Shown here in pieces: positions 4,852 to 49,325 of a DNA stretch of 64,000 nucleotides. The translations under genes were made by a program, and so were the position numbers. The DNA comes from a virus, in IMG/VR virus record IMGVR_UViG_3300045988_116984; one strand, written 5' to 3'. Each line of letters begins with the position of its first letter. Position 1 is the first letter of the stretch. Below the pieces are notes generated by a model. That model did no database searches, was not told the origin of the DNA, and was given only the letters and a program-made list of their open reading frames with translations.

Positions 4852-6042
4852 ATGTCCTACATCTTTGATACTAACATGTTCATGGAAGATTTTGACGTGA
4901 ACAAGTACAAAGGCGAGAAGATATATATACCGATTGTTGTACTTGAGGAACTCGACAAACACAGTCATAGTTCAGACAAGTTAAGGGCCTGTAAGGCGAG
5001 AAACGGGCTAAAGGCAATTGAAAAGCTCGGACAAGTCACTTATGGATTTAACGACATAGAGGAGAATAGAGTTTCTTCTTTCTTGGATATGAACGTTAAG
5101 GACAACTTGATTATCGAAGCGGCTCATCTTATTTGCAAGAAAGACCCAGACGCCACCCTATTAACACACGATTTGAACATGTATCAAAAGTGTGTAGCTT
5201 TGGGAGTCAAGTGTAAACACATTGATTATTCAAAGACTCCAATTTACAAAGGATATATCGAGGTTGTCGGTACTACCGAGACAATCAACAGATTCTTTGA
5301 TGAAATAAACACAGACAATCTTTACCCAAACGAATACATTCTTATCAAAGACATCTCTACTGATGAAGAAACAGAAATGCGTTGGACAGGCGAAAAATTC
5401 GTAGCATTAAACCTACCTGACTCAAAAGTTGTTAAGGCTAAGAACGCATTACAGCGTTGCGCGTTGGACTTGATGATGAATAGAGACATAACTGCTGTTG
5501 CTATTCTCGGCGGATATGGTAGTGGCAAAACATATTTGTGTATGCAAATGGCGCACTATTTTGTGTTCGATAGAAAAGAACATAATAAGATTCTTGGAAT
5601 TAGAGAGCCTAACGGTGAGGGAAAAGATATTGGTTATCTTAAAGGAACGTTTGAGGATAAAACGGCCAGATTCTTTAGGCCAATTGAGCAACAACTCAAA
5701 GGGCCGGGAGAATATGACTACTTAATCCAGTCAGGCGTAATTGAAACAGAAATTCCTTTCTACATGAAAGGTACAACCTATGATAAAACTATCTTCGTGG
5801 TTGACGAAGCAGAGGACTTGTCAGAAGCACAAATCAGACTTGTCGGAACTCGTGTCGGAGAGAATAGTAGAATTTTCTTTTCGGGGGACTTTGCACAATC
5901 AGTGAAAGATAAAACAGTTTCTAACCCACTTGTCAAGATGTGTGAACAGCTTAAGGGCAACAAGAAATTTGGTTGCGTATATTTAGACGAAGATGTTAGA
6001 AGCGAAACCAGCAAAATGTTTGCTGACTTATTCAATAATTAA
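4852..6042 (+). CDS. PIN-domain + PhoH-like ATPase (YlaK-type)
   Basis: N-terminal PIN signature (YIFDTNMF, VVLEELD, THD). Walker A GGYGSGKTY and Walker B VVDEAEDL match the PhoH family. Confidence 0.8.
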   Translation: MSYIFDTNMFMEDFDVNKYKGEKIYIPIVVLEELDKHSHSSDKLRACKARNGLKAIEKLGQVTYGFNDIEENRVSSFLDMNVKDNLIIEAAHLICKKDPDATLLTHDLNMYQKCVALGVKCKHIDYSKTPIYKGYIEVVGTTETINRFFDEINTDNLYPNEYILIKDISTDEETEMRWTGEKFVALNLPDSKVVKAKNALQRCALDLMMNRDITAVAILGGYGSGKTYLCMQMAHYFVFDRKEHNKILGIREPNGEGKDIGYLKGTFEDKTARFFRPIEQQLKGPGEYDYLIQSGVIETEIPFYMKGTTYDKTIFVVDEAEDLSEAQIRLVGTRVGENSRIFFSGDFAQSVKDKTVSNPLVKMCEQLKGNKKFGCVYLDEDVRSETSKMFADLFNN

Positions 6043-8551: not shown

Positions 8552-8627
8552 GCTGGTGTAACTCAATTGGTAGAGTAGCTCATTTGTAATGAGCAGGTTT
8601 GGAGTTCGAGTCTCCACATCAGCTCCA
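8552..8627 (+). tRNA. tRNA-Thr (anticodon UGU), CCA encoded
   Basis: Hand-folded cloverleaf. Acceptor GCTGGTG/CATCAGC, D stem ACTC/GAGT, anticodon stem GCTCA/TGAGC with loop TTTGTAA, T stem TGGAG/CTCCA with loop TTCGAGT, and a 5-nt variable loop. Confidence 0.85.
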
Positions 8628-25811: not shown

Positions 25812-26858
25812 ATGGCTAGAAAGACATTTAAAAAGATTATTACAAGTGAGGAATTAATTTCTCAAATAAATCCAGAGAACAAAAAAATAGCCGATAGGTT
25901 CTTAAAAAACTTTGCTACAAAACGCTCAGAAACATCAGTTAAGGTGTATAAGTCCAATTTCAACATATTCTTTTGTTGGAATCTCCAATATAATGATAAT
26001 AAATTCTTCACAGATATTAGAAAGTCTGAAATGATGGATTTCTTTGACTATGGCTCGTCTGAATTACAGTGGAGTCCAAACAGATATGCTAATGTTTGGA
26101 GTTCTTTGAACAGTCTTAGTACGTTTATAGAGAATGTACTTGACGATGATTACCCTGATTTCAGAAATCAAGTGAGAAAAATAGAGAAGCAGCCAAAGGC
26201 TACTGTTAGAAAGAAAACAGTTCTTACCGATGTACAAGTCCACAATTTACTCAATCATCTTTCAGAGACAAACACACAGCAAGCCTGTTTATTAGCGCTT
26301 GCGTGCTATTCGGGTGCTAGGATTAGTGAATTGTTCCGTTTCACGACGGACTTGATTGATTTAAATAATTTAGCATATGAAGATTTGTTCCTTGAAACAA
26401 CTGATGAGATTAAGACAAAGGGTAGAGGACGACTCGGTAAGGTATTATATAAATACATATTAAAAGCGCCATTTGAGCCTTATTATGTTAAATGGATAGA
26501 AGAACGCGAAGCTATTATGAAAGAGCTTGGTGTGTCACATGATTATCTATTTATCAGAAAAGACGGACAACCAGCTACTCCAGACACGGCGCGCGTATGG
26601 ATAAAGCAATGGGAGAAGTATCTTACGGACGAAGAACCGAGTAATAAGCGTCACGACCCTGTTGATTTATACGCCCATGCTTTCAGGCATTATCTGTGTA
26701 CATATTTAGCTAAGATAGGGCTGGAACAAGAACTTGTTGTCGAAATCTTTGGTTGGAGTTCATTTGATATGTTTAATATCTATAATGATATGACGGCCAA
26801 AGATAAAAAGTGGAAGGGGCTTGAGAAGCTCAAAAAAGCCATTGAAAAACAAGGGTGA
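25812..26858 (+). CDS. tyrosine site-specific recombinase (integrase/Xer/invertase family)
   Basis: Catalytic pattern: GARISEL (Arg), KTKGRG (Lys), HAFRHY (His-x-x-Arg), GWSS, and NIYND (Tyr). There is an N-terminal SAM-like core-binding region. Confidence 0.85.
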   Translation: MARKTFKKIITSEELISQINPENKKIADRFLKNFATKRSETSVKVYKSNFNIFFCWNLQYNDNKFFTDIRKSEMMDFFDYGSSELQWSPNRYANVWSSLNSLSTFIENVLDDDYPDFRNQVRKIEKQPKATVRKKTVLTDVQVHNLLNHLSETNTQQACLLALACYSGARISELFRFTTDLIDLNNLAYEDLFLETTDEIKTKGRGRLGKVLYKYILKAPFEPYYVKWIEEREAIMKELGVSHDYLFIRKDGQPATPDTARVWIKQWEKYLTDEEPSNKRHDPVDLYAHAFRHYLCTYLAKIGLEQELVVEIFGWSSFDMFNIYNDMTAKDKKWKGLEKLKKAIEKQG

Positions 26859-39437: not shown

Positions 39438-39980
39438 ATGGCTTTAAGTTTTAAGGGCACAAATGTACCTCCGTCCGGTAATGTAATATTTAATGGGACG
39501 TATTGTAAAACCGTAACATACAATGGTACTGAGGTTTGGAAAAAAGAATATACTGTGTATCCCGGCGCTCCCGTTGCTAATACTCAAAACCTTGGGTATG
39601 CTTCTTACTTTACTGTTACAAACAGTGGTACAGACATTAAGGTTGACGCATTTGGCGGCACAGAACGAGGATATGGGCGTGTTATGCTTGGTGGATTTAG
39701 CACAATAGGTTATTCACAAATATATTTTAATAATCTCCGGGCATTTATCACAAACAGCTATTCCCATATCAAGGTGGCATTGAGTGATATAAACGGGAAT
39801 GTTGTTCAACAGCTTATTTATTCAGAAACAAACGGATTCGACGCAACATATACCGCAAGCACTAAATTCAACATAAATTCGCCAAATGGTAATTACTATT
39901 TAATGTTAGAAGTTGAATCTGGCGCTACACACTTAGGAAAGAACGCCACCATTTTAATGAATGGTTGTTATTTAGTTTAA
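39438..39980 (+). CDS. hypothetical tail-fibre-associated protein
   Basis: 180-aa beta-rich ORF. Confidence 0.35.
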   Translation: MALSFKGTNVPPSGNVIFNGTYCKTVTYNGTEVWKKEYTVYPGAPVANTQNLGYASYFTVTNSGTDIKVDAFGGTERGYGRVMLGGFSTIGYSQIYFNNLRAFITNSYSHIKVALSDINGNVVQQLIYSETNGFDATYTASTKFNINSPNGNYYLMLEVESGATHLGKNATILMNGCYLV

Positions 39981-40838: not shown

Positions 40839-41462
40839 ATGTTAAGTTTCTCTGTCAAGAAGCAAAAACTCGAAAGAAAAGACAATCAAGAAGTGGTTGG
40901 AGGAACATATAATTACTTATATGCTGTATTTGACTTTTCATATGATTGGGACAACGTTTCTAAAAATGCAATATTCAATAACTGCAAAGCAAAGAAAAAC
41001 TTTGCCGTTCCTATTGTAGAAAATATATGTCTTGTGCCATGGGAGGTTATAGAAAGTCCAAACTTTACGGTATCGTTATATGGATTTACAGACAACAAGA
41101 GAATAACTTCTAATGAAGTTATGATACCAGTTAAAAGCAAACCATATAACGCCAATAACATTCCATCACCGCCTCCGACACCAACTGATTATGAAGCATA
41201 TGTACAACTTGTAAATAAATATAAAGAAGAATCGGACGCTCAATACAATGAGCTTAAAGAAACAAAAGCGGAAGTAACAACAACTGACAGCATTTATAAA
41301 TTCCCGAATATCGGGAACAAAAACTATCTATACATTGATTCTTCTACTAATACAACGTATAGATGGGATGAAACCGAATTAAAGTATTATTGTGTTGGTT
41401 CTGATTACAGAGAAATAGAGATTATCATAGGGGGGAAAGCAAGTGGCAAATACAACTCTTAA
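40839..41462 (+). CDS. hypothetical tail-fibre-module protein
   Basis: 207 aa. The C-terminal NYLYIDSSTNTTYRWDETELKYYCVG motif is seen in Firmicutes phage fibre proteins. Confidence 0.4.
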   Translation: MLSFSVKKQKLERKDNQEVVGGTYNYLYAVFDFSYDWDNVSKNAIFNNCKAKKNFAVPIVENICLVPWEVIESPNFTVSLYGFTDNKRITSNEVMIPVKSKPYNANNIPSPPPTPTDYEAYVQLVNKYKEESDAQYNELKETKAEVTTTDSIYKFPNIGNKNYLYIDSSTNTTYRWDETELKYYCVGSDYREIEIIIGGKASGKYNS

Positions 41463-42813
41463 TGTTAAAATACAAATAAGAAATGACGTTGCCAATACTT
41501 GGAAAACCACAAACCCTGTACTTCTAAAGGGTGAAATGGGTATTGAAACAGATACAAGGAAGTTCAAGTTCGGTGACGGCGTTTCAACTTGGACTGAACT
41601 TGACTATGCAAGTGCGCAAGCTGCGGTTGTAATGAACAAAGCGCCTACGCCAATGGACTCTGGATATGATATTGGTGTAATTTGGATTGATACAGCGGGC
41701 AACAAGGCGTATGTCTTGTTTAACAACACATCTAATAATGCTATTTGGAAACAGATGGTTACGCCTGATGACTTGAGCGACCTTGGCGCAGGAGACATGT
41801 TGAAATCTCAGTTTGCCAACAATCCAAAAGCAGAGCAAGGTTATGTAAACGCAGCTATTGTAGCCGACACAGCAAATGCTACTAAGGCGGCGCTTACTGC
41901 TGGTACAAAGACATTTAACGGCTCAACAGCGATTGAAATCACTGCTGGTGATTTGGGTGCTCTTACATCTGTTCCATCAGAGTACGTCAAAAACACAGAT
42001 TACGGTACTACCGAACAGGGCGGCGTTGTTAAGTCGGTTGCTAAGGGCACTGATACAGTTACCATTAACGCCGACGGAACAATGTCCATGGGAAAGGCTT
42101 CTACCGCCGGAGCGGCAGACACCGCCGCTGCTTTACAAACTGGTAGAACGATTGCTCTTAGTGGAGACGCAACTGGTACTTCTGCTGCTTTCGATGGTAC
42201 GGCGAATGTAACAATTCCTGTTGTATTAGCAAAGAGTGGTGTTACAGCTGGTACATTCACAAAGGTTACTGTGAATGATAAAGGGCTTGTAACAAGCGGG
42301 GAGGCTCTTGTAGCTTCTGACATTCCATCCCTTACTCTTTCGAAGATTACTGATGCTGGTACTGCTGCTGCGGCTGATACTGGTATCGCAGAGGGCAACG
42401 TCCCCATTCTTGGTGCTGGTGGCAAACTGAACGAAGCGGTTATCCCCGCCATTGCTATTACTGATACATATGTTGTTGACAGTCAAGCCGCAATGCTTGG
42501 GCTTGATGCTCAAAAAGGTGACGTTGCTGTTCGTACAGATATCAATAAAACATTCATCTTAAAACAGTCTCCCGCATCTACTTTGGGAAACTGGGTTGAG
42601 CTTGAAACACCGACAGATGCTGTAACGAGTGTAAATGGTTTAACTGGTGCTGTTGTTCTTACAACATCAAATATAGAAGAAGGAAGTAATCTTTATTTCA
42701 CGACTGCTAGAGCAAACGCGAACTGGATTACACATGCTTCTACGGAGCTTACAGACTCTGATACTCTGCTTAGGACAACTGACACATTTATACTTAATGG
42801 CGGAAATGCCTAA
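41443..42813 (+). CDS. tail fibre protein (conserved fibre N-terminal domain)
   Basis: GTG start. The N-terminus IRNDVANTWKTTNPVLLKGEMGIETDTRKFKFGDGVSTWTELDY is the common phage-fibre/hyaluronidase-type N-terminal domain. Confidence 0.6.
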   Translation: MANTTLNVKIQIRNDVANTWKTTNPVLLKGEMGIETDTRKFKFGDGVSTWTELDYASAQAAVVMNKAPTPMDSGYDIGVIWIDTAGNKAYVLFNNTSNNAIWKQMVTPDDLSDLGAGDMLKSQFANNPKAEQGYVNAAIVADTANATKAALTAGTKTFNGSTAIEITAGDLGALTSVPSEYVKNTDYGTTEQGGVVKSVAKGTDTVTINADGTMSMGKASTAGAADTAAALQTGRTIALSGDATGTSAAFDGTANVTIPVVLAKSGVTAGTFTKVTVNDKGLVTSGEALVASDIPSLTLSKITDAGTAAAADTGIAEGNVPILGAGGKLNEAVIPAIAITDTYVVDSQAAMLGLDAQKGDVAVRTDINKTFILKQSPASTLGNWVELETPTDAVTSVNGLTGAVVLTTSNIEEGSNLYFTTARANANWITHASTELTDSDTLLRTTDTFILNGGNA

Positions 42814-42841
42814 TCTATATCAACATTAAGGAGGGGTATCT

Positions 42842-45223
42842 GTGGCTAATAGAAACCTAAACGCTCGACAGCAGCAAAAACATGATACTTCGTCCAATTT
42901 TAACTCTAAAAATGCCACATATTTAGAGGGCGAAATCCTTATTGAAAGTGACACCGGCAGAGTTAAGATAGCTGATGGAGATACAGATTATAAAACGCTC
43001 CAATATACTATTGGAACTCGTGTACCAACAGATGCCAAGTTTACAGATACCACTTATACTGCTAGTGGAGGGCTGTCCCTTAGCGGGACAACCTTTTCCA
43101 TTGCTAATTCTGGTGTAACAGCGGATACTTATGGGCCAACTGCTAATGTATCTGGCTCTTGGGGAACGTCGTTTACAGTACCAAGCGTTGTTGTAAATAC
43201 TAAAGGACAAGTTACGAGCGCGGTTGATAGAACTGTTACTATGCCTGCGAAACCAACCGCTGCTGATATTGGTGCCGAGCCAGCGTTTACAAAAAATACA
43301 GCGTTCAACAAAAATTTCGGAACTGCTTCTGGAACTGTTTGTGAGGGTGACGATGAGAGATTGTCGAATGCGCGTCCTGCTTCTGATGTTTCAGCATGGG
43401 CAAAAGCGGCTACAAAGCCAACCTATACCCCAACAGAAGTTGGCGTCATTGGTGCAGCTCCTGCTTCTGGGCAAGTAGCTGTTTTTGATGGTACAACTGG
43501 TAAGATTAAATCTACTGGGTTTACGATAGCAACATCGGTGCCTGCCAATGCCGAATTCACAGACACAACATATAACAAAGCAACAGATTCTTCTCTTGGA
43601 CTGGTGCAAGTTGGATATTCCACTTCTGGAAAAAACTACGCTGTTACTTTAGACGATTCTGGCAATGCTTATGTAAACGTCCCATGGACGGATTCTGTTG
43701 CTAATAACCCAGCCATAACAATTACACAAAACGGAACGTCTAAAGGCTCTTTCACGCTAAACCAGACTTCGGCAGAAACAATTGATTTGACTGATACAAC
43801 ATATTCTGTTTTTGAAGCCGCCACTTCAAGTGTAGCAGGTAGTACCGGATTAGTACCAGCTCCTGCGGCTGGCAAGCAGACGAGCTTCTTACGAGGAGAC
43901 GGGACATGGGTTATACCGTCTCAACCGACAGTGAATAATCCTACTATCACAATAAAACAGGACGGCGCGACCAAAGGGACATTTACTTTAAATCAATCTG
44001 GAGATGCCACAATAGAGCTTACTGACGCCAATACGACTTATGCTCAAGCGACATCAACAGTCCTTGGTTTGGTTAAGATTGGATACGCTGAAAATGGCCG
44101 AAACTATCCAATTAAGCTTGATTCTTTGGGGAAAATGTTTGTCAATGTACCATGGACAGACACAACATATTCCGTCGCCACTGTTAGCGAGGATGGATTG
44201 ATGCCTAAAATCCCAAGTTCGTCTGCTCAATATTTAAACGGCATGGGACAGTGGAGTACACCACCAGATACTAAATATACAAACTTTGTCGGTTCTGGCT
44301 CTGAAGCTAAGTCTGGACTTGTTCCGTCTCCGGGGACAATCGCTGGCACAACAAAATATCTAAGAGAAGATGGAACATGGAGTGTACCGCCAGATACTAC
44401 ATATACAGCAGGACGAGCAATTGAAATTAGTCAAGGCGCTATTAGCGTAACAAGCAGTGGTGTATCTTCTGGCGCATACGGTTTAACGGATAGTACCAGT
44501 GTTAATATTGGTACGTCATTTACTGTTCCGGGGTTTGTTGTTGACCAATGCGGTAGATTGACGCAGGCATACAGCAGGACTGTTACTGTTAATGCGCCAA
44601 ATATGACTGGTGCCACAACATCAGCAGCAGGAACGGCTGGCTTGGTTCCTACGCCTACTGCGGGGAAGCCAACAAGGTACCTTTGTTCAACCGGAGAATG
44701 GAGTATACCCACTGGAACTATTTATAATGGAAGCACAACAATATCCGTTAAACCGTCTACAACTGATGGAGAATACAATATATATTTAGTTGCGTTATTT
44801 CCGGGCACTACAAGCCAAAGCGTTGGACCAAGCGCATCAGGAACAATTAATTTTGGCTCTGCTTTTAATGTGCCATATATAACGATAGACCAATATGGCA
44901 GAATCACGGCATTAGCGAATAGAAGTATGATTCTTAGTGGAGCATTAGCAAGCAGCTCTGCTCCTGGTTTGTGTCCAAAGTTAGATTCGTCACATCCATC
45001 ATATTATCTAAATGCTAATGGAAGTTGGAGTCTCCCAAGAGGCAGAGTATATGGTGTAAAAGGAGAAGCCGAAACGGATTATCGTAAAGGACAAGTAAAC
45101 ATAACAGCAGATAATATTGGAGCATTATCTCTTTCTTCTGGCGGCACAGTTGCTGGTGCTACAACGTTTAGTAGTGATGTTACTATTAGCGGCGAACTAA
45201 ATTATGATGGTGGATTCTATTGA
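42842..45223 (+). CDS. long tail fibre protein with internal repeats
   Basis: GTG start after AAGGAGGGG. It has the same N-terminal domain type (EGEILIESDTGRVKIADGDTDYKTLQY) and repeated GLVP.P....K.LR.DGTW..P units. It also carries the AEPAFTKNTAFNKNFG...RLSNAR module. Confidence 0.65.
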   Translation: MANRNLNARQQQKHDTSSNFNSKNATYLEGEILIESDTGRVKIADGDTDYKTLQYTIGTRVPTDAKFTDTTYTASGGLSLSGTTFSIANSGVTADTYGPTANVSGSWGTSFTVPSVVVNTKGQVTSAVDRTVTMPAKPTAADIGAEPAFTKNTAFNKNFGTASGTVCEGDDERLSNARPASDVSAWAKAATKPTYTPTEVGVIGAAPASGQVAVFDGTTGKIKSTGFTIATSVPANAEFTDTTYNKATDSSLGLVQVGYSTSGKNYAVTLDDSGNAYVNVPWTDSVANNPAITITQNGTSKGSFTLNQTSAETIDLTDTTYSVFEAATSSVAGSTGLVPAPAAGKQTSFLRGDGTWVIPSQPTVNNPTITIKQDGATKGTFTLNQSGDATIELTDANTTYAQATSTVLGLVKIGYAENGRNYPIKLDSLGKMFVNVPWTDTTYSVATVSEDGLMPKIPSSSAQYLNGMGQWSTPPDTKYTNFVGSGSEAKSGLVPSPGTIAGTTKYLREDGTWSVPPDTTYTAGRAIEISQGAISVTSSGVSSGAYGLTDSTSVNIGTSFTVPGFVVDQCGRLTQAYSRTVTVNAPNMTGATTSAAGTAGLVPTPTAGKPTRYLCSTGEWSIPTGTIYNGSTTISVKPSTTDGEYNIYLVALFPGTTSQSVGPSASGTINFGSAFNVPYITIDQYGRITALANRSMILSGALASSSAPGLCPKLDSSHPSYYLNANGSWSLPRGRVYGVKGEAETDYRKGQVNITADNIGALSLSSGGTVAGATTFSSDVTISGELNYDGGFY

Positions 45224-45235
45224 TAGGTGATTATT

Positions 45236-46195
45236 ATGGCAATTAAAATACAAAGGCAGACGGCATCAGCGTCGTCTGCCTCTCCTCCCTCTACGCTTCC
45301 ATATGGGGAATTAGCATGTGATAAAACGGCAGTTTTATATGTCGGAAATTCGTCAAATTTGCCTGTTAAAATGATGGACACGAACAGTTACAATCAAGTT
45401 GGCAATCCAAATCTTTTAGACAATACAAACTTTAAGAATTTAGTAAATCAAAGAGGTAAATCTTCTTATTCATTAGACTGGAAATATTGTATTGATAGGT
45501 GGGTGCTTTTAGGAACATATTCCGTCAGTAATCATACGCTTACTTTTGATGCCGGATACCAAACGTCAAGATTTGGGCTTGACGCAATATCATACATGCG
45601 TCAAGGACTTGAAAAACTTGATTCTGGTACATATACAATATCGGCAGGAGTCGGAGATACAGTATATTCTCAGACTATATCCGTTTATCAAGGCGGTTCA
45701 GCAAATGCATGGAACATGGGGCCATTCTATTTTACATATGAAAAATTCGTTGGTGTGGATGTACAGTGGTTTGGCTTTGGGGTTACACCGGGAGAATCAG
45801 GCCCAGGCTCTATTGCTTTAGACTGGATTAAACTTGAGCAGGGTGATAAAGCAACACCATATTCCCCGAAAGGATACGGAGCTGAATTAGGCGAGTGTTC
45901 AAGATATTTTATAAGCGCTATTGGATTTGGTGCTCCTGGAATTATAAACGCTAGTAGTTCAAGACTATTCATAAATACTCCTGTAATGATGCGTGGAGTG
46001 ACACCAACCGTAACTGTAAATTCTCCTGATAATATTGTATTCAACGGTACATTTAAAGCCCTAAATACAACGGCAACAGGAGCGCAAAGATTTAAAAATG
46101 GTATTCTTGTAAATATAGGTTCGGCGACAACAGGAGTTACAAATACTCCCGGTATTGCCTTTGGATTATCTGTTGATATATCGTGCGATATATAA
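45236..46195 (+). CDS. putative receptor-binding / fibre-tip protein, paralogue 1
   Basis: TAGGTGA RBS. YNQVGNPNLLDNTNF...CIDRW...WIKLEQGDKATPYSPKGY is shared with the next gene. Confidence 0.5.
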   Translation: MAIKIQRQTASASSASPPSTLPYGELACDKTAVLYVGNSSNLPVKMMDTNSYNQVGNPNLLDNTNFKNLVNQRGKSSYSLDWKYCIDRWVLLGTYSVSNHTLTFDAGYQTSRFGLDAISYMRQGLEKLDSGTYTISAGVGDTVYSQTISVYQGGSANAWNMGPFYFTYEKFVGVDVQWFGFGVTPGESGPGSIALDWIKLEQGDKATPYSPKGYGAELGECSRYFISAIGFGAPGIINASSSRLFINTPVMMRGVTPTVTVNSPDNIVFNGTFKALNTTATGAQRFKNGILVNIGSATTGVTNTPGIAFGLSVDISCDI

Positions 46196-46210
46196 CTAAG
46201 GTGGTTTAAT

Positions 46211-47094
46211 ATGCCTATAAAGATATATAGACAAAATATTTCCGCAAATGAGCCATTGCCCCCCCGTTGACTTACGGAAATATAGCGTCTAATAAATATG
46301 GAAAACTATATGCGGGGGACTCATCTAATAGCCCAATTGGTATGTTAGATGAAAAGACTTATAATCAAGTAGGAAATCCAAACTTACTAGACAATAGCGA
46401 TTTTACAAATGCTGTAAAACAACGTGGAGATACCATATTTGATAGAAATGGGTATTGCGTTGATAGATGGCAAGTGTTTGAGTCTACATATGACACTACT
46501 ACAAAAACTGTTACAGCTGATGATGTAGTTGAATCTTGTGGCTCTCAGCTCAGACAAATAATAGACCCAAGCGTACTTTGTGAAGGAGACACTATTTCGG
46601 TTAGTGCTTATGTAAATAATACACTTTATAAGTTTACCACAACTATAACGACGTTTAGTGATTCAGGTTTAATTTCAGACGCTCCTTATGCTTTGGAAAC
46701 GTCTTGGGGCGGATTTAAAATAGTTCTATTTGCTCATAGGCCGGAAATATTTTTTGTAATGTTTTTAAATCCGTCTCAAAAAATAACTGTAAATTGGGCC
46801 AAACTGGAAAGAGGAGCATCTGTAACACCATATGTGCCCAAAGGATATTGGCAAGAGCTGTCGGAGTGTTTAAGATATTATCAAACAATTGCTTTTTCAG
46901 TTGGAGCAGATAGAGCAACATATAAATATATTCCGACACTTACTCCTATGAGGACCACACCAACGTGTACATTACAACAGATAGCAGCAAGTGGAACACT
47001 GCCAACAATATCAACAAACAATTTGTACATAACGGCGAATTTGGCAACGCCACAGTATTTTGACGGAATTGCATTGCTTTCGGCAGATTTTTAA
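46211..47094 (+). pseudogene. receptor-binding paralogue 2, interrupted by a frameshift at a C7 tract (phase-variable, recoded or disrupted)
   Basis: An AAGGTGG RBS and the ATG at 46211 give MPIKIYRQNISANEPLPPR followed by a stop. The remaining 275 codons continue in the -1 frame from 46267. Homology to paralogue 1 spans the break (MAIKIQRQ...LPYGEL versus MPIKIYRQ...LTYGNI). Confidence 0.65.
46259..46265 (+). repeat. homopolymeric C7 tract at the frameshift point
   Basis: Sequence is ttgCCCCCCCgttgac. Eight or five C residues would restore a single ORF. Confidence 0.9.
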
Positions 47095-47107
47095 GGAGCG
47101 AACTTAC

Positions 47108-47458
47108 ATGGAAGATGGAAAATATATCGTATATATCCGTGTTGACGAGAATGGCAGTATCATAGAAATAAATAGTGATGCTTTCTTGGATAACATAGAT
47201 GGCTATATAGAACTTGATAGTGGTTATGGCGACAAATACCATCACGCTCAAAATAACTATTTTTCTAAGCCGTTGTATGACGAACAATGGTGTGCCAACT
47301 ATAAAATGGAAAACGGCATTGTATTGGAACGCACAGAAGAAGAAAAAGAGATTGAGATGTCTAATAGGCCTAAACCATTGCCAACGGGCGAGGAGAGACT
47401 TGCCGCTCTTGAAGAGGCGATGTTAGCAACGATGTCTAGGGGGACTACAAATGTTTGA
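47108..47458 (+). CDS. small tail-fibre-associated protein (XkdW-position)
   Basis: AAGGAG RBS before the ATG at 47108. It lies directly upstream of, and overlaps, the XkdX-like gene. Confidence 0.35.
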   Translation: MEDGKYIVYIRVDENGSIIEINSDAFLDNIDGYIELDSGYGDKYHHAQNNYFSKPLYDEQWCANYKMENGIVLERTEEEKEIEMSNRPKPLPTGEERLAALEEAMLATMSRGTTNV

Positions 47459-47570
47459 CTTTTTAAAAATTCAATATGAACTTGGGAAGATAACAAAAGA
47501 GCAATTATATTCTTATGTTTCAACATGGATTTCCGAGTTTGAATATAAGAAAATAATTGGAGAAATGTAA
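47451..47570 (+). CDS. xkdX: XkdX-family small protein
   Basis: Below the ORF-track cutoff. The 39-aa translation MFDFLKIQYELGKITKEQLYSYVSTWISEFEYKKIIGEM matches my recollection of the XkdX pattern (..y..g..t.eq....V....It..EY..ItGe). Confidence 0.6.
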   Translation: MFDFLKIQYELGKITKEQLYSYVSTWISEFEYKKIIGEM

Positions 47571-47675
47571 CCCCCAAAAACGATATTTATGCTGATACCA
47601 ATAAAACTACGTAGATTTAGCTGCTATGAGTGGTAACAATATCAATTTAACGAAAGTCAAAAAAAGGTGAATAAT

Positions 47676-49325
47676 ATGTCTATCTATTCAGGTAGAACAC
47701 AAGTCCCATTCTATTATAGCTGTTACGGCTATACAAGAGGCGGAGGAAAAACATGGCATGGAGGTATTGATGTTGTTGGAGTTGACGATACTACAATACG
47801 CATGCCAGACTACGATGGTAAGTCAATTAGTGGTACAGTTGTTTCTTCTAGGATAGTTGATAAAAGTACAGGCGATTTGACATGGGAGTGGGGTTGGTAT
47901 GTTTGTGTCCAACTAGATGCTAACCAAACTCCTGATACCGTAAACTATCTATATTTTTGTCACAATGAAAGAAACCTAGTAACTGTTGGACAAAAAGTAA
48001 AGACTGGTGATGCTCTTGCTATTATGGGCAACAGTGGTAACGCGGCTTTAGCAAATCCTCCAATCAAACATTGTCACTTTGAAGTAAGAGCAACGAGAAG
48101 TGGAAAGGGACTCGACCCAACACATTATTCTGGGACAAAGAACGCAGTTGGCACATATGATTCGTCCAACTCAAATAGTGATTCTGGAAATACTAATGTT
48201 TTATATAATGGGATTGACGTTTCAAAATATCAGGGAGTAATCAATTGGCCACAAGTAAAAGCGGCTGGATATAAATTTGCGTTTATTCGAGTAGGGTATT
48301 GTGGATATGATGGACGTATTATTGATGGATACGACCCATATTATGAGACAAATATGAAGAACGCAATAGCGGCTGGAATAGACGTCGGTGTATATGTTTA
48401 CTCATATGCTAAGACAGTTGAAGCGGCTAAAATAGCGGCTCAAGATGTTATCAATAGGGTAAAACCATATACAGTAACAATGCCTATTGCTTTTGACTTC
48501 GAGGACAGTTCTCTATATTCAACGATAGGTAAAGCCGCGAATACAGAAATATGTAAGGCGTTTTTAAGCGAAGTACAAAGACTTGGATATTATTCAATGC
48601 TTTATACATATACAAACTTTGCCAATACGTTGCTTGATATGTCACAATTAAGTGCTTATGACATGTGGCTTGCTGACTATACAGGAAGTCCTGGATATTC
48701 TGGCTCTTATAGTATATGGCAATATAGCTCAAAAGGCTCTGTGGCTGGAATTAGCGGAAATTGTGACGTAAACTATGAATACAAAGACCACCCAGCTATT
48801 ATAAGAGCAGCTGGACTTAACGGATTGGGGGAACCAACTGTGGAGAAACTTACAAATACACTTCTTAGGGTATCAATGGTAGGAGAAAAGAATCCTAATC
48901 AATACTTCAACAGCAAAGACACAAATGATATTGTTGGGTATCTTGACATTGGTGACTATGAAGCAATTGAGAAAAATAGTGCTTTAGAGAATGGGTTCTG
49001 GTGGGTTAAATTTAAACATACAGACGGTAAAGAATATTGGGCTGTATATGACAACCATGACGGCGGAGCAATCAGTGACGGTAGAGCAGTGCTTGTAGCT
49101 GGTTCTATTAAACCCGACCCTGAACCCGAACCAGAGCCTACGCCTCCTGCCAGTGAACTTGTAAAACAAATCGAGGAATTGATGAAACAACTCGAAGATT
49201 TGATGAAGCAAGTTGATGATGCTTTGGCGAAAGCGAATGCTCTCGAAGAAGAAAACAAAAGACTTGTAGCTGAAAACGAACAGCTTAAAGCCAAAATTGA
49301 GGCGGCTAAGGCCGCTCTAGCATAA
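47676..49325 (+). CDS. multidomain endolysin: M23 peptidase + GH25 muramidase + SH3-like region + PEPE linker + coiled coil
   Basis: M23 motifs WHGGIDV and KHCHFEV. GH25 start NGIDVSKYQGVINWPQVKAAGYKFAFIRVGY. The C-terminus has PDPEPEPEPTPP followed by heptad-like ELVKQIEELMKQLEDLMKQVDD... Confidence 0.8.
   Translation: MSIYSGRTQVPFYYSCYGYTRGGGKTWHGGIDVVGVDDTTIRMPDYDGKSISGTVVSSRIVDKSTGDLTWEWGWYVCVQLDANQTPDTVNYLYFCHNERNLVTVGQKVKTGDALAIMGNSGNAALANPPIKHCHFEVRATRSGKGLDPTHYSGTKNAVGTYDSSNSNSDSGNTNVLYNGIDVSKYQGVINWPQVKAAGYKFAFIRVGYCGYDGRIIDGYDPYYETNMKNAIAAGIDVGVYVYSYAKTVEAAKIAAQDVINRVKPYTVTMPIAFDFEDSSLYSTIGKAANTEICKAFLSEVQRLGYYSMLYTYTNFANTLLDMSQLSAYDMWLADYTGSPGYSGSYSIWQYSSKGSVAGISGNCDVNYEYKDHPAIIRAAGLNGLGEPTVEKLTNTLLRVSMVGEKNPNQYFNSKDTNDIVGYLDIGDYEAIEKNSALENGFWWVKFKHTDGKEYWAVYDNHDGGAISDGRAVLVAGSIKPDPEPEPEPTPPASELVKQIEELMKQLEDLMKQVDDALAKANALEEENKRLVAENEQLKAKIEAAKAALA

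What the first reader, a model, noticed from the sequence alone, without database searches (positions are those of the whole stretch)
46211..46270. C7 homopolymer splits the second of two tandem receptor-binding paralogues
Seen:
- A good RBS (AAGGTGG) and the ATG at 46211 open a frame encoding MPIKIYRQNISANEPLPP. This frame terminates 3 nt after a run of seven C residues (46259-46265).
- The remaining 275 codons continue in the -1 frame.
- The upstream paralogue (45236..46195) aligns across the break: MAIKIQRQ...SPPSTLPYGELACDK versus MPIKIYRQ...EPLPP/LTYGNIASNK.
- Eight or five C residues would give a single 294-aa-class ORF.

Established knowledge: poly-C/G tracts of this length are classic slipped-strand phase-variation switches in bacterial surface genes.

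Inference: this is an ON/OFF or dosage switch for an alternative receptor-binding protein. Less likely explanations are -1 recoding, a decaying duplicate, or a homopolymer sequencing error.
Basis: partly seen in the sequence, partly recalled or inferred. Interest (0 to 1): 0.65.

Follow-up and report, generated by a model that had tools for sequence, protein, structure and literature searches.

The report
Poly-C switch in phage tail-fibre gene
A run of seven C's breaks the reading frame of the second of two tandem tail-fibre-tip genes in an uncultured human-gut phage, and related phages show that such C/G runs change length easily and put these genes in or out of frame, so it is most likely a mutational ON/OFF switch for an alternative host-recognition protein.

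Summary
C8 or C5 restores one ORF, and paralogue A aligns across the break.

Comparative data support the phase-variation reading.
- In 33 related gut-metagenome loci, this family of short tail-fibre paralogues (2-4 or more tandem copies per phage) usually carries a poly-C (C6-C12) or poly-G (G6-G10) run at the same codon position.
- Of 65 copies with a run of 6 or more, 28 are in frame and 37 are out of frame, in both directions.
- Of 25 copies without a run, 22 are in frame.
- Every out-of-frame copy keeps a full-length body, with dN/dS 0.13-0.21.
- Contigs with identical bodies differ only at the tracts.
- There is no frameshift-stimulating RNA structure and no conserved shift direction.

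Caveats:
- The window's own lineage shows C7 (OFF) in all four assemblies, and its ON form has not been seen.
- No reads were available, so switching within a population is inferred.
- Receptor binding rests only on tail-fibre homology.

Precedents are the Campylobacter Fletchervirus polyG tracts (2021) and T2/T4 contingency loci (2025). I class this as a new member of a known kind, in a widespread and uncharacterised gut phage lineage. Interest 0.6.

The parts
46198..46204 (+). Shine-Dalgarno sequence AAGGTGG of paralogue B
   Evidence: Read directly. It lies 6 nt upstream of ATG 46211. It is conserved in relatives as AAGGTGG, AAGGGGA or AAGGCGG.
46211..46270 (+). 5' segment of paralogue B in frame 0. 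It encodes 19 codons (MPIKIYRQNISANEPLPPR) and ends at TGA 46268-70. This is the conserved N-terminal MxIKIxRQ motif of the family.
   Evidence: The motif is present in all paralogues.
46259..46265 (+). C7 homopolymer, the proposed slipped-strand switch. C8 or C5 is in frame; C7 is OFF (-1).
   Evidence: Homologous tracts of C6-C12 and G6-G10 vary in length among relatives.
46267..47094 (+). Body of paralogue B in the -1 frame. It has 275 codons counted from TTG, and the frame is open from 46252. It comprises the rest of the N-terminal anchor, a beta-sandwich middle domain and a C-terminal tip.
   Evidence: The ORF is listed. It matches the C-terminal part of phrog_4492, a tail fibre family, at E 1e-11. 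The AF2 model matches predicted phage tail fibres at E 4e-10. dN/dS against relatives is 0.14-0.21.
45236..46195 (+). Paralogue A (319 aa). It belongs to the same family. Its Pro codons are interrupted (TCTCCTCCCTCT), so it has no tract and is always in frame.
   Evidence: phrog_4492 E 1e-15. It is in frame in every relative examined.
42842..45223 (+). Long tail fibre protein (793 aa) with an Mtd_N-type N-terminus, immediately upstream of the paralogue pair
41443..42813 (+). Tail fibre protein (456 aa) with an Mtd_N N-terminal domain
   Evidence: (PF18454, E 1e-9).
47108..47458 (+). Conserved 116-aa gene (phrog_24451) that follows the paralogues in all relatives. Its function is unknown. It is followed by an XkdX-like 39-aa ORF (47451-47570) and the endolysin (47667-49325, M23 + GH25).

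Best explanation
Paralogue B is a contingency (phase-variable) gene of a phage. It encodes a short tail-fibre or fibre-tip protein that shares its first ~55 residues, the presumed virion-attachment module, with paralogue A. Its target-recognition body and tip differ from A.

Proposed mechanism:
- The Pro-Pro(-Pro) codons at positions 17-19 are written as a homopolymeric C run.
- During phage DNA replication, polymerase slippage on this run adds or removes C's at a rate far above the base substitution rate.
- That toggles the gene between in frame (C8 here; full 294-aa fibre made) and out of frame (C7 as assembled; translation stops after 19 codons).
- A phage population would therefore hold virions with fibre A only and virions with A plus B. 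This would hedge against hosts whose surface receptor varies.

What is shown:
- the tract, the frames and the paralogy;
- membership of a tail-fibre family;
- tract-length polymorphism with ON, +1 and -1 states among near-identical relatives;
- intact bodies under purifying selection in OFF copies.

What is inferred:
- slippage as the mutational mechanism;
- switching within a single population;
- the receptor-binding role and the bet-hedging benefit;
- that the window's own C7 allele still switches.
For: 1. Anatomy.

2. Tail-fibre identity. Both paralogues match the C-terminal third of phrog_4492, a tail fibre family. The AF2 model has pLDDT 73, and above 85 for residues 90-200. Its best BFVD matches are tail fibre proteins at E 4e-10 to 1e-5. 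The genes sit between two Mtd_N fibre genes and the lysis genes.

3. ON alleles with the same leader exist. L010 and L011 read ...CCATTG-C9-TCATTGGCC (PLPPPSLAYG, 295 and 315 aa). L003, L004 and L005 have C7, and L006 has C6+A; all are out of frame.

4. L006 (OFF) and L011 (ON) come from different samples. They are 99.5% identical over 2.4 kb, and the only gap is the tract.

5. Census of 90 paralogue 5' ends in 33 non-duplicate loci. With a run of 6 or more: 28 ON, 23 OFF(-1), 14 OFF(+1). With a run below 6: 22 ON and 3 OFF, and those 3 are deletion remnants of tracts. Fisher p = 1e-4.

6. Ten contigs from ten samples encode an identical 254-aa body. Within the aligned coding sequence their only indels are at two C tracts (C8/C9/C12 and C7/C8/C9). 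Three of them have no substitutions at all between them.

7. Protein clusters at 90% identity mix full-length and N-truncated members. In cluster 7, for example, the 314-aa form is seen on about 10 contigs and the 254-aa form on about 50.

8. All 40 OFF copies keep downstream ORFs of normal length. dN/dS of the body is 0.13-0.21, including OFF-OFF pairs.

9. The related fibre modules hold 80 C/G runs of 7 or more in 190 kb, against 3.7 expected.

10. Precedent: Fletchervirus polyG tracts in RBP genes (Sorensen 2021, Cell Rep 35:109214, as cited) and phage contingency loci in T2/T4 (bioRxiv 10.1101/2025.10.21.683753).
Against: - All four assemblies of the window's own lineage (L007, L008, L009, L068; 99.9-100% identical) carry C7. 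No C8 protein of this lineage is in the 5.8-billion-cluster collection. This particular allele could therefore be locked OFF.
- C7 is at the short end of the family's range, so it should slip less often than C9-C10.
- No reads were available, so heterogeneity within one population is not shown.
- Part of the census was retrieved with OFF proteins as queries, which inflates the OFF fraction for those genes. The unbiased pattern-scan loci give 12 ON and 13 OFF (14 and 13 if the tract-free A-type copies of L016 are also counted).
- Differences between assemblies at C9-C12 runs could partly reflect assembler or Illumina trouble at long homopolymers. One scaffold gap sits on a tract in L063.
- The host, the receptor and any phenotype are unknown.
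Confidence: 0.75

Rival explanations
1. The allele is locked OFF, or is a young pseudogene. The family is phase-variable, but in the window's lineage the C7+G allele is a fixed loss of function that no longer reverts at a useful rate. The phage would rely on paralogue A alone.
For: - C7 is found in all four assemblies of this lineage, and no ON form is in the databases.
- The tract context differs from relatives: C7-G-TTG here against C9-TCA-TTG.
- C7 is among the shortest tracts in the census.
Against: - The body is intact at 275 codons. The RBS, ATG and 18-codon leader are also intact.
- dN/dS against relatives is 0.14-0.21, and 0.21 against the closest one, L003, although that figure rests on only 14 differences.
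- One added C restores the frame.
- The four assemblies come from few HMP samples and are nearly clonal, so they count as roughly one observation.
Confidence: 0.12
2. Recoding supplies the full-length protein. It would be made from the out-of-frame template by ribosomal slippage of tRNA-Pro on the C run (-1 here, +1 in the L003 type) or by RNA polymerase slippage. The frameshift would then set a low dosage rather than switching the gene off.
For: - CCC_C runs are known slippage-prone sites for tRNA-Pro, and homopolymers can cause transcriptional slippage (established knowledge).
- In the window the frame-0 stop lies one codon after the run.
- A -1 slip on the common C9 allele of the PQPPPH type would give exactly the protein of the C10 allele.
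- Out-of-frame alleles are common and under purifying selection.
Against: - The shift direction is not conserved. There are 23 -1 and 14 +1 alleles, plus 28 in-frame alleles of the same genes.
- The 80 nt downstream fold no better than shuffled sequence (z = +0.68).
- G CCC CCC is not a canonical X XXY YYZ heptamer in frame 0.
- C7 is short for efficient transcriptional slippage, which usually needs 9 or more A/T (established knowledge).
- Recoding cannot explain why the DNA tract length itself varies between near-identical genomes.
Confidence: 0.08
3. Sequencing or assembly error: the true sequence is C8 and the gene is simply intact.
For: Homopolymers are classic indel-error sites. The source is an early HMP metagenome assembly.
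Against: - C7 is reproduced in JGI WUGC and LANL assemblies, in a separate JGI sample and in an independent ENA re-assembly. L009 differs by a SNP nearby.
- No other ORF in the fibre module is broken.
- Out-of-frame alleles of homologous tracts recur in dozens of unrelated samples and pipelines.
Confidence: 0.03
4. Termination-reinitiation: ribosomes finishing the 19-codon leader at TGA (46268-70) restart at the overlapping TTG (46267-69). They would make an N-terminally truncated 275-aa fibre protein.
For: The stop and the TTG overlap as TTGA, a typical coupling arrangement.
Against: - The overlap is not conserved. In +1 OFF relatives the leader frame stops 8-9 codons further on, with no in-frame start nearby.
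- The truncated product would lack the MxIKIxRQ motif conserved in every paralogue.
- TTG with no Shine-Dalgarno sequence of its own is a weak start.
Confidence: 0.02

Closest known systems
Hypermutable polyG tracts in receptor-binding-protein genes of Campylobacter Fletchervirus phages (Sorensen et al. 2021, Cell Rep 35:109214; described)
   Same: - Homopolymeric G/C tracts of about 7-11 bases lie inside phage host-recognition genes.
- Tract-length changes shift the frame and create phage subpopulations with different RBP expression.
- Several tracts occur per genome.
- The concept is bet-hedging against variable host receptors.
   Different: - There is no sequence relationship. tblastn of the repaired protein against 50,697 GenBank phage records finds nothing.
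- This is an uncultured ~115-125 kb human-gut phage, probably of Clostridia. The host is Gram-positive-type rather than Campylobacter.
- The tracts sit at one homologous position, codons ~15-19 of a shared N-terminal anchor. They occur in a tandem family of modular paralogues.
- Evidence here is comparative only. No phenotype or switching rate has been measured.
Phage contingency loci in T2/T4 and other coliphages (Gomez, Barrick & Waters, bioRxiv 10.1101/2025.10.21.683753)
   Same: Short homopolymer repeats in phage genes act as reversible frameshift hot spots through polymerase slippage and give population heterogeneity.
   Different: - In that survey, SSRs of 6 bp or more were under-represented in tail-fibre and other infection genes of BASEL coliphages. 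Here the tracts are concentrated in the fibre module, with 80 observed against 3.7 expected.
- The T-even examples (agt, rIIA) concern defence evasion, not adsorption.
- Those tracts are mostly A/T runs in AT-rich genomes. Here they are C/G runs in a 38% GC genome.
Bacterial contingency loci: poly-C/G phase variation of surface and LOS/capsule genes in Neisseria, Haemophilus and Campylobacter
   Same: - The tract lies early in the coding region, so the OFF state truncates after a few codons.
- Several independently switching loci occur.
- OFF alleles stay intact and under purifying selection.
   Different: The tract is carried by a virus and replicated by the phage's own replication machinery. 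It controls a virion component rather than a cell-surface structure.
Other phage tropism-switching systems: Bordetella BPP-1 Mtd diversity-generating retroelement, and Mu Gin / P1 Cin invertible fibre segments
   Same: The functional goal is the same, namely alternative tail-fibre specificities within one phage lineage. The neighbouring fibre genes carry the Mtd_N N-terminal domain.
   Different: The mechanism differs. No reverse transcriptase with template and variable repeats, and no invertible segment, is involved at this locus. A tyrosine recombinase exists at 25812-26858, but no convincing inverted repeats flank it.

Membership tests
SSR-mediated phase-variable (contingency) gene | Homopolymeric tract of about 7 bases or more inside the 5' part of the coding region | tested here: met
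   C7 at 46259-46265 covers codons 17-19 of a 294-codon gene.
SSR-mediated phase-variable (contingency) gene | Gain or loss of a repeat unit switches between a full-length ORF and early termination | tested here: met
   C8 and C5 give 294 and 293 aa. C7 stops after 19 codons.
SSR-mediated phase-variable (contingency) gene | Tract length is polymorphic among otherwise near-identical genomes, in the gene family | tested here: met
   L006 and L011 are 99.5% identical and differ by a gap only at the tract. Ten contigs with an identical body carry C8/C9/C12 and C7/C8/C9. Census.
SSR-mediated phase-variable (contingency) gene | Tract length is polymorphic in the window's own lineage | tested here: not met
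   All four assemblies carry C7. They are nearly clonal, so the power of this test is low.
SSR-mediated phase-variable (contingency) gene | OFF alleles remain intact and under purifying selection, so they are not pseudogenes | tested here: met
   All 40 OFF copies keep full-length bodies. dN/dS is 0.13-0.21.
SSR-mediated phase-variable (contingency) gene | High-frequency, reversible switching within a clonal population, with a phenotypic effect | not testable with these tools
   This needs read pile-ups, single-plaque amplicon sequencing and a host. One hint: L057 and L063 may be two assemblies of one sample, and they differ at a tract.
Fletchervirus polyG RBP system (homology) | Sequence relationship to Fletchervirus RBP genes or phages | tested here: not met
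   tblastn of the repaired protein and megablast of the 4.7-kb locus against the GenBank phage collection found no match. The system is an analogue, not a homologue.
Programmed -1 ribosomal frameshift | Canonical X XXY YYZ slippery heptamer in the zero frame | tested here: not met
   Frame 0 reads TTG CCC CCC CGT. The heptamer is G CCC CCC, so only the A-site tRNA re-pairs perfectly.
Programmed -1 ribosomal frameshift | Stimulatory RNA structure 5-9 nt downstream | tested here: not met
   The MFE is -10.8 kcal/mol against a shuffle mean of -12.65, z = +0.68.
Programmed -1 ribosomal frameshift | Frameshift site and direction conserved among homologues | tested here: not met
   There are 28 in-frame, 23 -1 and 14 +1 alleles.
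Phage tail fibre / receptor-binding protein | Profile or fold similarity to tail fibre proteins | tested here: met
   phrog_4492 tail fibre at E 1e-15 for A and 1e-11 for B. BFVD tail fibre hits at E 4e-10 and weaker. There is no PDB relative by sequence or fold.
Phage tail fibre / receptor-binding protein | Location in the tail-fibre module of a phage | tested here: met
   The genes lie downstream of the terminase, portal, a minor tail protein and two Mtd_N fibre genes. They lie upstream of XkdX and the endolysin.
Phage tail fibre / receptor-binding protein | Demonstrated binding to a host receptor | not testable with these tools
   The host is unknown. Only distant fibre homologues (25-32% identity) occur in Clostridia/Oscillospiraceae MAGs and Ruthenibacterium.

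The most novel reading that the evidence does not exclude
This widespread, uncultured lineage of ~115-125 kb human-gut phages runs a combinatorial contingency-locus system on its host-recognition module.
- Up to five or six independent poly-C/G switches occur per genome.
- Most sit at one homologous position in the shared N-terminal anchor of a cassette of modular, recombining fibre-tip paralogues.
- Further tracts lie in the RBS spacer of the conserved downstream gene and upstream of another structural gene.
- One genotype would therefore continuously produce many virion 'phasotypes' with different fibre sets.

The window's C7 would be the single remaining switch of a reduced version.
Probability: 0.45. 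Interest if true: 0.72.

Novelty: new member of a known kind. Interest (0 to 1): 0.6.

Why it matters
Homopolymer-driven phase variation of phage host-recognition genes has been shown experimentally only for Campylobacter Fletchervirus phages. The wider idea of phage contingency loci was proposed only in 2025 (bioRxiv 10.1101/2025.10.21.683753). A 2025 gut-phage study (Nature, PMC12823448) lists polyG tracts as a possible but not yet observed host-range determinant in the gut.

The data here indicate that an abundant, uncharacterised human-gut phage group, probably infecting Clostridia, concentrates such tracts in a family of tail-fibre tip genes. About half of all assembled alleles are out of frame.

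Two practical consequences follow:
- Automated annotation splits or truncates these genes, so they appear in databases as 250-298-aa fragments.
- Host-range prediction from a consensus genome will be wrong for a mixed population.

The system also gives a directly testable case, by read pile-ups in public data, for phage bet-hedging in the human gut.

Tried and rejected
- Megablast of 42800-47500 against GenBank phages found no match. tblastn of the repaired protein found no match either. No annotated relative could be used.
- The PDB sequence profile search gave only spurious hits at E 0.002 or weaker. The Foldseek PDB search found nothing at E 0.001 or better. There is no solved-structure anchor for 'receptor binding'.
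- Pfam gave no domain for either paralogue.
- An exact-pattern scan of IMG/VR for the window-type leader plus tract found nothing. The first IMG/VR protein scan gave only a partial locus.
- The look-up of the NCBI ON protein P0126 (UVY03723.1) found no record in the contig index.
- Programmed -1 frameshifting was tested and rejected. There is no downstream structure and no conserved direction.
- I looked for an invertible segment near the tyrosine recombinase at 25812-26858. Only weak inverted repeats of 14-18 nt and 82-93% complementarity turned up.
- I considered that MSHCPP…, as called in P0001, P0004 and P0007, is a genuine alternative start. I rejected this because it is simply the +1 frame of the conserved leader, and it is out of frame with the body in the window.
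- I could not establish the host. Genome hits are only 25-32% identical fibre homologues in Clostridia MAGs. The portal is at most 27% identical to anything in GenBank phages.

Full report
**Observation**

- AAGGTGG lies at 46198-46204 and the ATG at 46211.
- Frame 0 encodes MPIKIYRQNISANEPLPPR and stops at TGA 46268-70.
- The C run is seven bases, 46259-46265.
- The -1 frame is open from 46252. From TTG 46267 it runs 275 codons to the stop at 47092-94.

This C7 is the only C or G run of 7 or more in the whole 64-kb window, whose GC content is 37.6%. Adding one C gives a 294-aa ORF and removing two gives 293 aa. The repaired protein aligns with the upstream paralogue A (45236-46195, 319 aa) from residue 1, across the break, to the C-terminus.

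**What the genes are**

The window is part of a ~115-kb phage contig from a Human Microbiome Project sample. L007, from JGI record SRS015663_WUGC_scaffold_23444, is identical to it.

The window carries these genes:
- a terminase-like gene, a portal and a minor tail protein;
- two long fibre genes whose products start with the Mtd_N domain (41443-42813 and 42842-45223);
- paralogues A and B;
- a conserved 116-aa gene (phrog_24451) and an XkdX-like ORF;
- an M23+GH25 endolysin.

A and B both match the C-terminal third of the tail-fibre family phrog_4492, at E 1e-15 and 1e-11. An AlphaFold2 model of repaired B has mean pLDDT 73, and above 85 for the central beta-sandwich. Its best matches among predicted viral structures are tail fibre proteins and 'carbohydrate-binding CenC-like' proteins, from E 4e-10 down. 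Nothing in the PDB matches by sequence or fold.

'Tail-fibre tip protein' is therefore supported. 'Receptor-binding' is an inference.

No relative exists among 50,697 GenBank phage records, and the portal is at most 27% identical to anything there. Distant homologues of the fibre protein (25-32% identity) occur in Clostridia and Oscillospiraceae MAGs and in Ruthenibacterium. The host is therefore probably a gut member of the Clostridia.

**Relatives**

Their N-termini fall into three groups.
- Some are full length, for example P0122, P0126, P0132 and P0136 with …NEPLPPPSL[AT]YGN….
- Some begin right after the tract (MTYGN…, MAYG…) or further downstream (MLDEK…, MDNSDF…).
- Some begin MSHCPP… or MFPQMSHCPP…. 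This is the +1 reading of the same leader DNA.

Clusters at 90% identity mix full-length and truncated members.

The DNA explains this. With an identical leader, L010 and L011 have C9 and are in frame. L003, L004 and L005 have C7, and L006 has C6+A; these are out of frame in the +1 sense. The window has C7+G and is out of frame in the -1 sense. L006 (OFF) and L011 (ON) come from different samples. They are 99.5% identical over 2.4 kb, and the only gap is the tract.

**Census**

I located every family member by its MxIKIxRQ start and its downstream YG.[IL]A motif, in the window plus 32 non-duplicate related loci. This gave 90 gene 5' ends. Phages carry two to four or more tandem paralogues.

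| Longest C/G run | In frame | Out of frame (-1) | Out of frame (+1) |
|---|---|---|---|
| 6 or more (C6-C12, G6-G10), 65 copies | 28 | 23 | 14 |
| Below 6, 25 copies | 22 | 0 | 3 |

- The 3 out-of-frame copies without a run are visibly deletion remnants of a tract (GCCGCCCTCTAC against GCCGCCCCCCCCTCTAC).
- The association of frameshift with tract gives Fisher p = 1e-4.
- All 40 out-of-frame copies retain a downstream ORF of normal length.
- Part of the sample was retrieved with OFF proteins as queries, so the OFF fraction for those genes is inflated. Loci found by unbiased pattern scans give 12 ON and 13 OFF (14 and 13 if the tract-free A-type copies of L016 are also counted).
- The related fibre modules contain 80 C/G runs of 7 or more in 190 kb, where 3.7 are expected from composition.

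**Hypermutability and selection**

Ten contigs from ten samples encode an identical 254-aa body. Aligned over 1.65 kb, their only indels inside coding sequence are at two C tracts: C8, C9 or C12 in one gene and C7, C8 or C9 in the next paralogue. Three of these contigs have no substitutions between them yet differ at both tracts.

Nei-Gojobori dN/dS of the 273-codon body is 0.13-0.21 for all pairs that include the window, L003 or L004. This covers the OFF-OFF pairs. These genes are therefore not decaying; they must be expressed often enough to be selected.

**Mechanism and rivals**

The pattern is the signature of a contingency locus:
- a tract early in the gene;
- stepwise length variation around in-frame lengths;
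- both out-of-frame states present;
- bodies intact and under selection.

The inferred mechanism is polymerase slippage on the homopolymer, giving ON/OFF expression of an alternative fibre.

*Programmed ribosomal frameshifting* is poorly supported.
- The direction is not conserved, and in-frame alleles of the same genes are common.
- The zero-frame heptamer is not canonical.
- The 80 nt downstream fold no better than shuffled sequence, z = +0.68.
- Low-level leaky expression from tRNA-Pro slippage or transcriptional slippage cannot be excluded.

*Sequencing error* is unlikely. C7 is reproduced in four assemblies, including an independent ENA re-assembly, and one of them carries a nearby SNP.

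*Termination-reinitiation* at the overlapping TTGA is possible in the window but is not conserved among relatives.

*A locked OFF allele* is the main residual doubt, and it concerns the window's own copy. Only C7 has been seen in its near-clonal lineage. No C8 protein of this lineage exists in the collection. C7 is at the short, less slippery end of the family's range.

**Comparison with known systems**

The closest precedent is the set of 7-11-base polyG tracts in RBP genes of Campylobacter Fletchervirus phages (Sorensen et al. 2021, Cell Rep 35:109214, as described). The general concept of phage contingency loci was set out for T2/T4 (bioRxiv 10.1101/2025.10.21.683753).

The present system works like these but is not homologous to them. 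It differs in four ways:
- It belongs to an uncultured human-gut phage lineage.
- The tracts occupy one homologous position in the shared N-terminal anchor of a tandem, strongly mosaic paralogue family.
- The tracts are enriched in fibre genes, whereas the coliphage survey found SSRs depleted there.
- A 2025 gut-phage study mentions polyG tracts only as a possible host-range determinant. My literature searches found no description of this phenomenon in gut Clostridia phages.

**Verdict**

I classify the finding as a new member of a known kind, with interest 0.6. My confidence that the tract is a slipped-strand contingency switch of a tail-fibre gene is about 0.75. The decisive test is a read pile-up of the C run in the public source samples.

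Noticed in passing
window 25812-26858 (+): A 348-aa tyrosine recombinase or integrase-like gene (phrog_1, E 5e-28) sits inside the structural module, between head genes and the 1688-aa tape-measure-like ORF. That is an odd place for an integrase. Only weak inverted repeats (14-18 nt, 82-93% complementary) lie nearby.
   Followed up: partly
L015:971, L018:1029, L019:3408, L047:3413 (homologous to window ~47090-47107): In some relatives a poly-G run (G8, G9, G10, G9) forms the Shine-Dalgarno and spacer region just upstream of the ATG of the conserved phrog_24451 gene (…TTTAAAGGGGGGGGAATATCATGGAAGAT…). Its variable length would change the SD-to-start spacing. The window has an ordinary AAGGAG RBS there.
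   Followed up: partly
L055-L064 around position 5400; L021:5582; L045:5529: Another variable poly-C run (C7 to C11) lies in a short leader ORF (MMMKFYTIDAPPP…) about 40 nt upstream of the RBS of a 194-aa gene. In L063 the scaffold breaks into N's exactly at this tract. The window has only a weak match to that gene's N-terminus, at 39438-39566.
   Followed up: partly
Alignment A1; window 45236-47094 and relatives: The fibre-tip family is strongly mosaic. The N-terminal ~55-aa module, the middle beta-sandwich and the C-terminal tip recombine independently. For example, P0002 combines an A-type N-terminus with a B-type body, and P0024 combines an A-type body with a B-type tip. At least four tip types exist.
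   Followed up: partly
L057 (Logan SRR13236317) vs L063 (ENA CHOI22-1_SAMN17049693): These two ~123.4-kb contigs have no substitutions over 1.65 kb and nearly identical coordinates. They may be two assemblies of one sample. They differ at a tract (C7 against C9), which hints at within-sample heterogeneity.
   Followed up: no
window 41443-42813 and 42842-45223: Two consecutive long fibre proteins both begin with the Mtd_N domain known from the Bordetella phage BPP-1 tropism determinant. The short paralogues have an N-terminus of similar pattern (…L.YGE[IL]A.DK…LYVG…) that does not reach Pfam significance.
   Followed up: no
window 47667-49325 (+): The endolysin combines Peptidase_M23 and GH25 domains. 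A PEPEPEPTPP linker and a C-terminal coiled-coil-like tail follow them. Some relatives have a different ~660-aa gene at this position.
   Followed up: no
window 8552-8627 (+): A tRNA-Thr (TGT) gene lies just upstream of the terminase region.
   Followed up: no
Public protein databases (clusters of P0003, P0153, P0140 and others): Gene callers annotate the out-of-frame alleles as N-truncated proteins of 250-298 aa. They use arbitrary internal ATG, TTG or GTG starts, or the +1-frame MSHCPP… start. The family is therefore systematically mis-annotated.
   Followed up: yes
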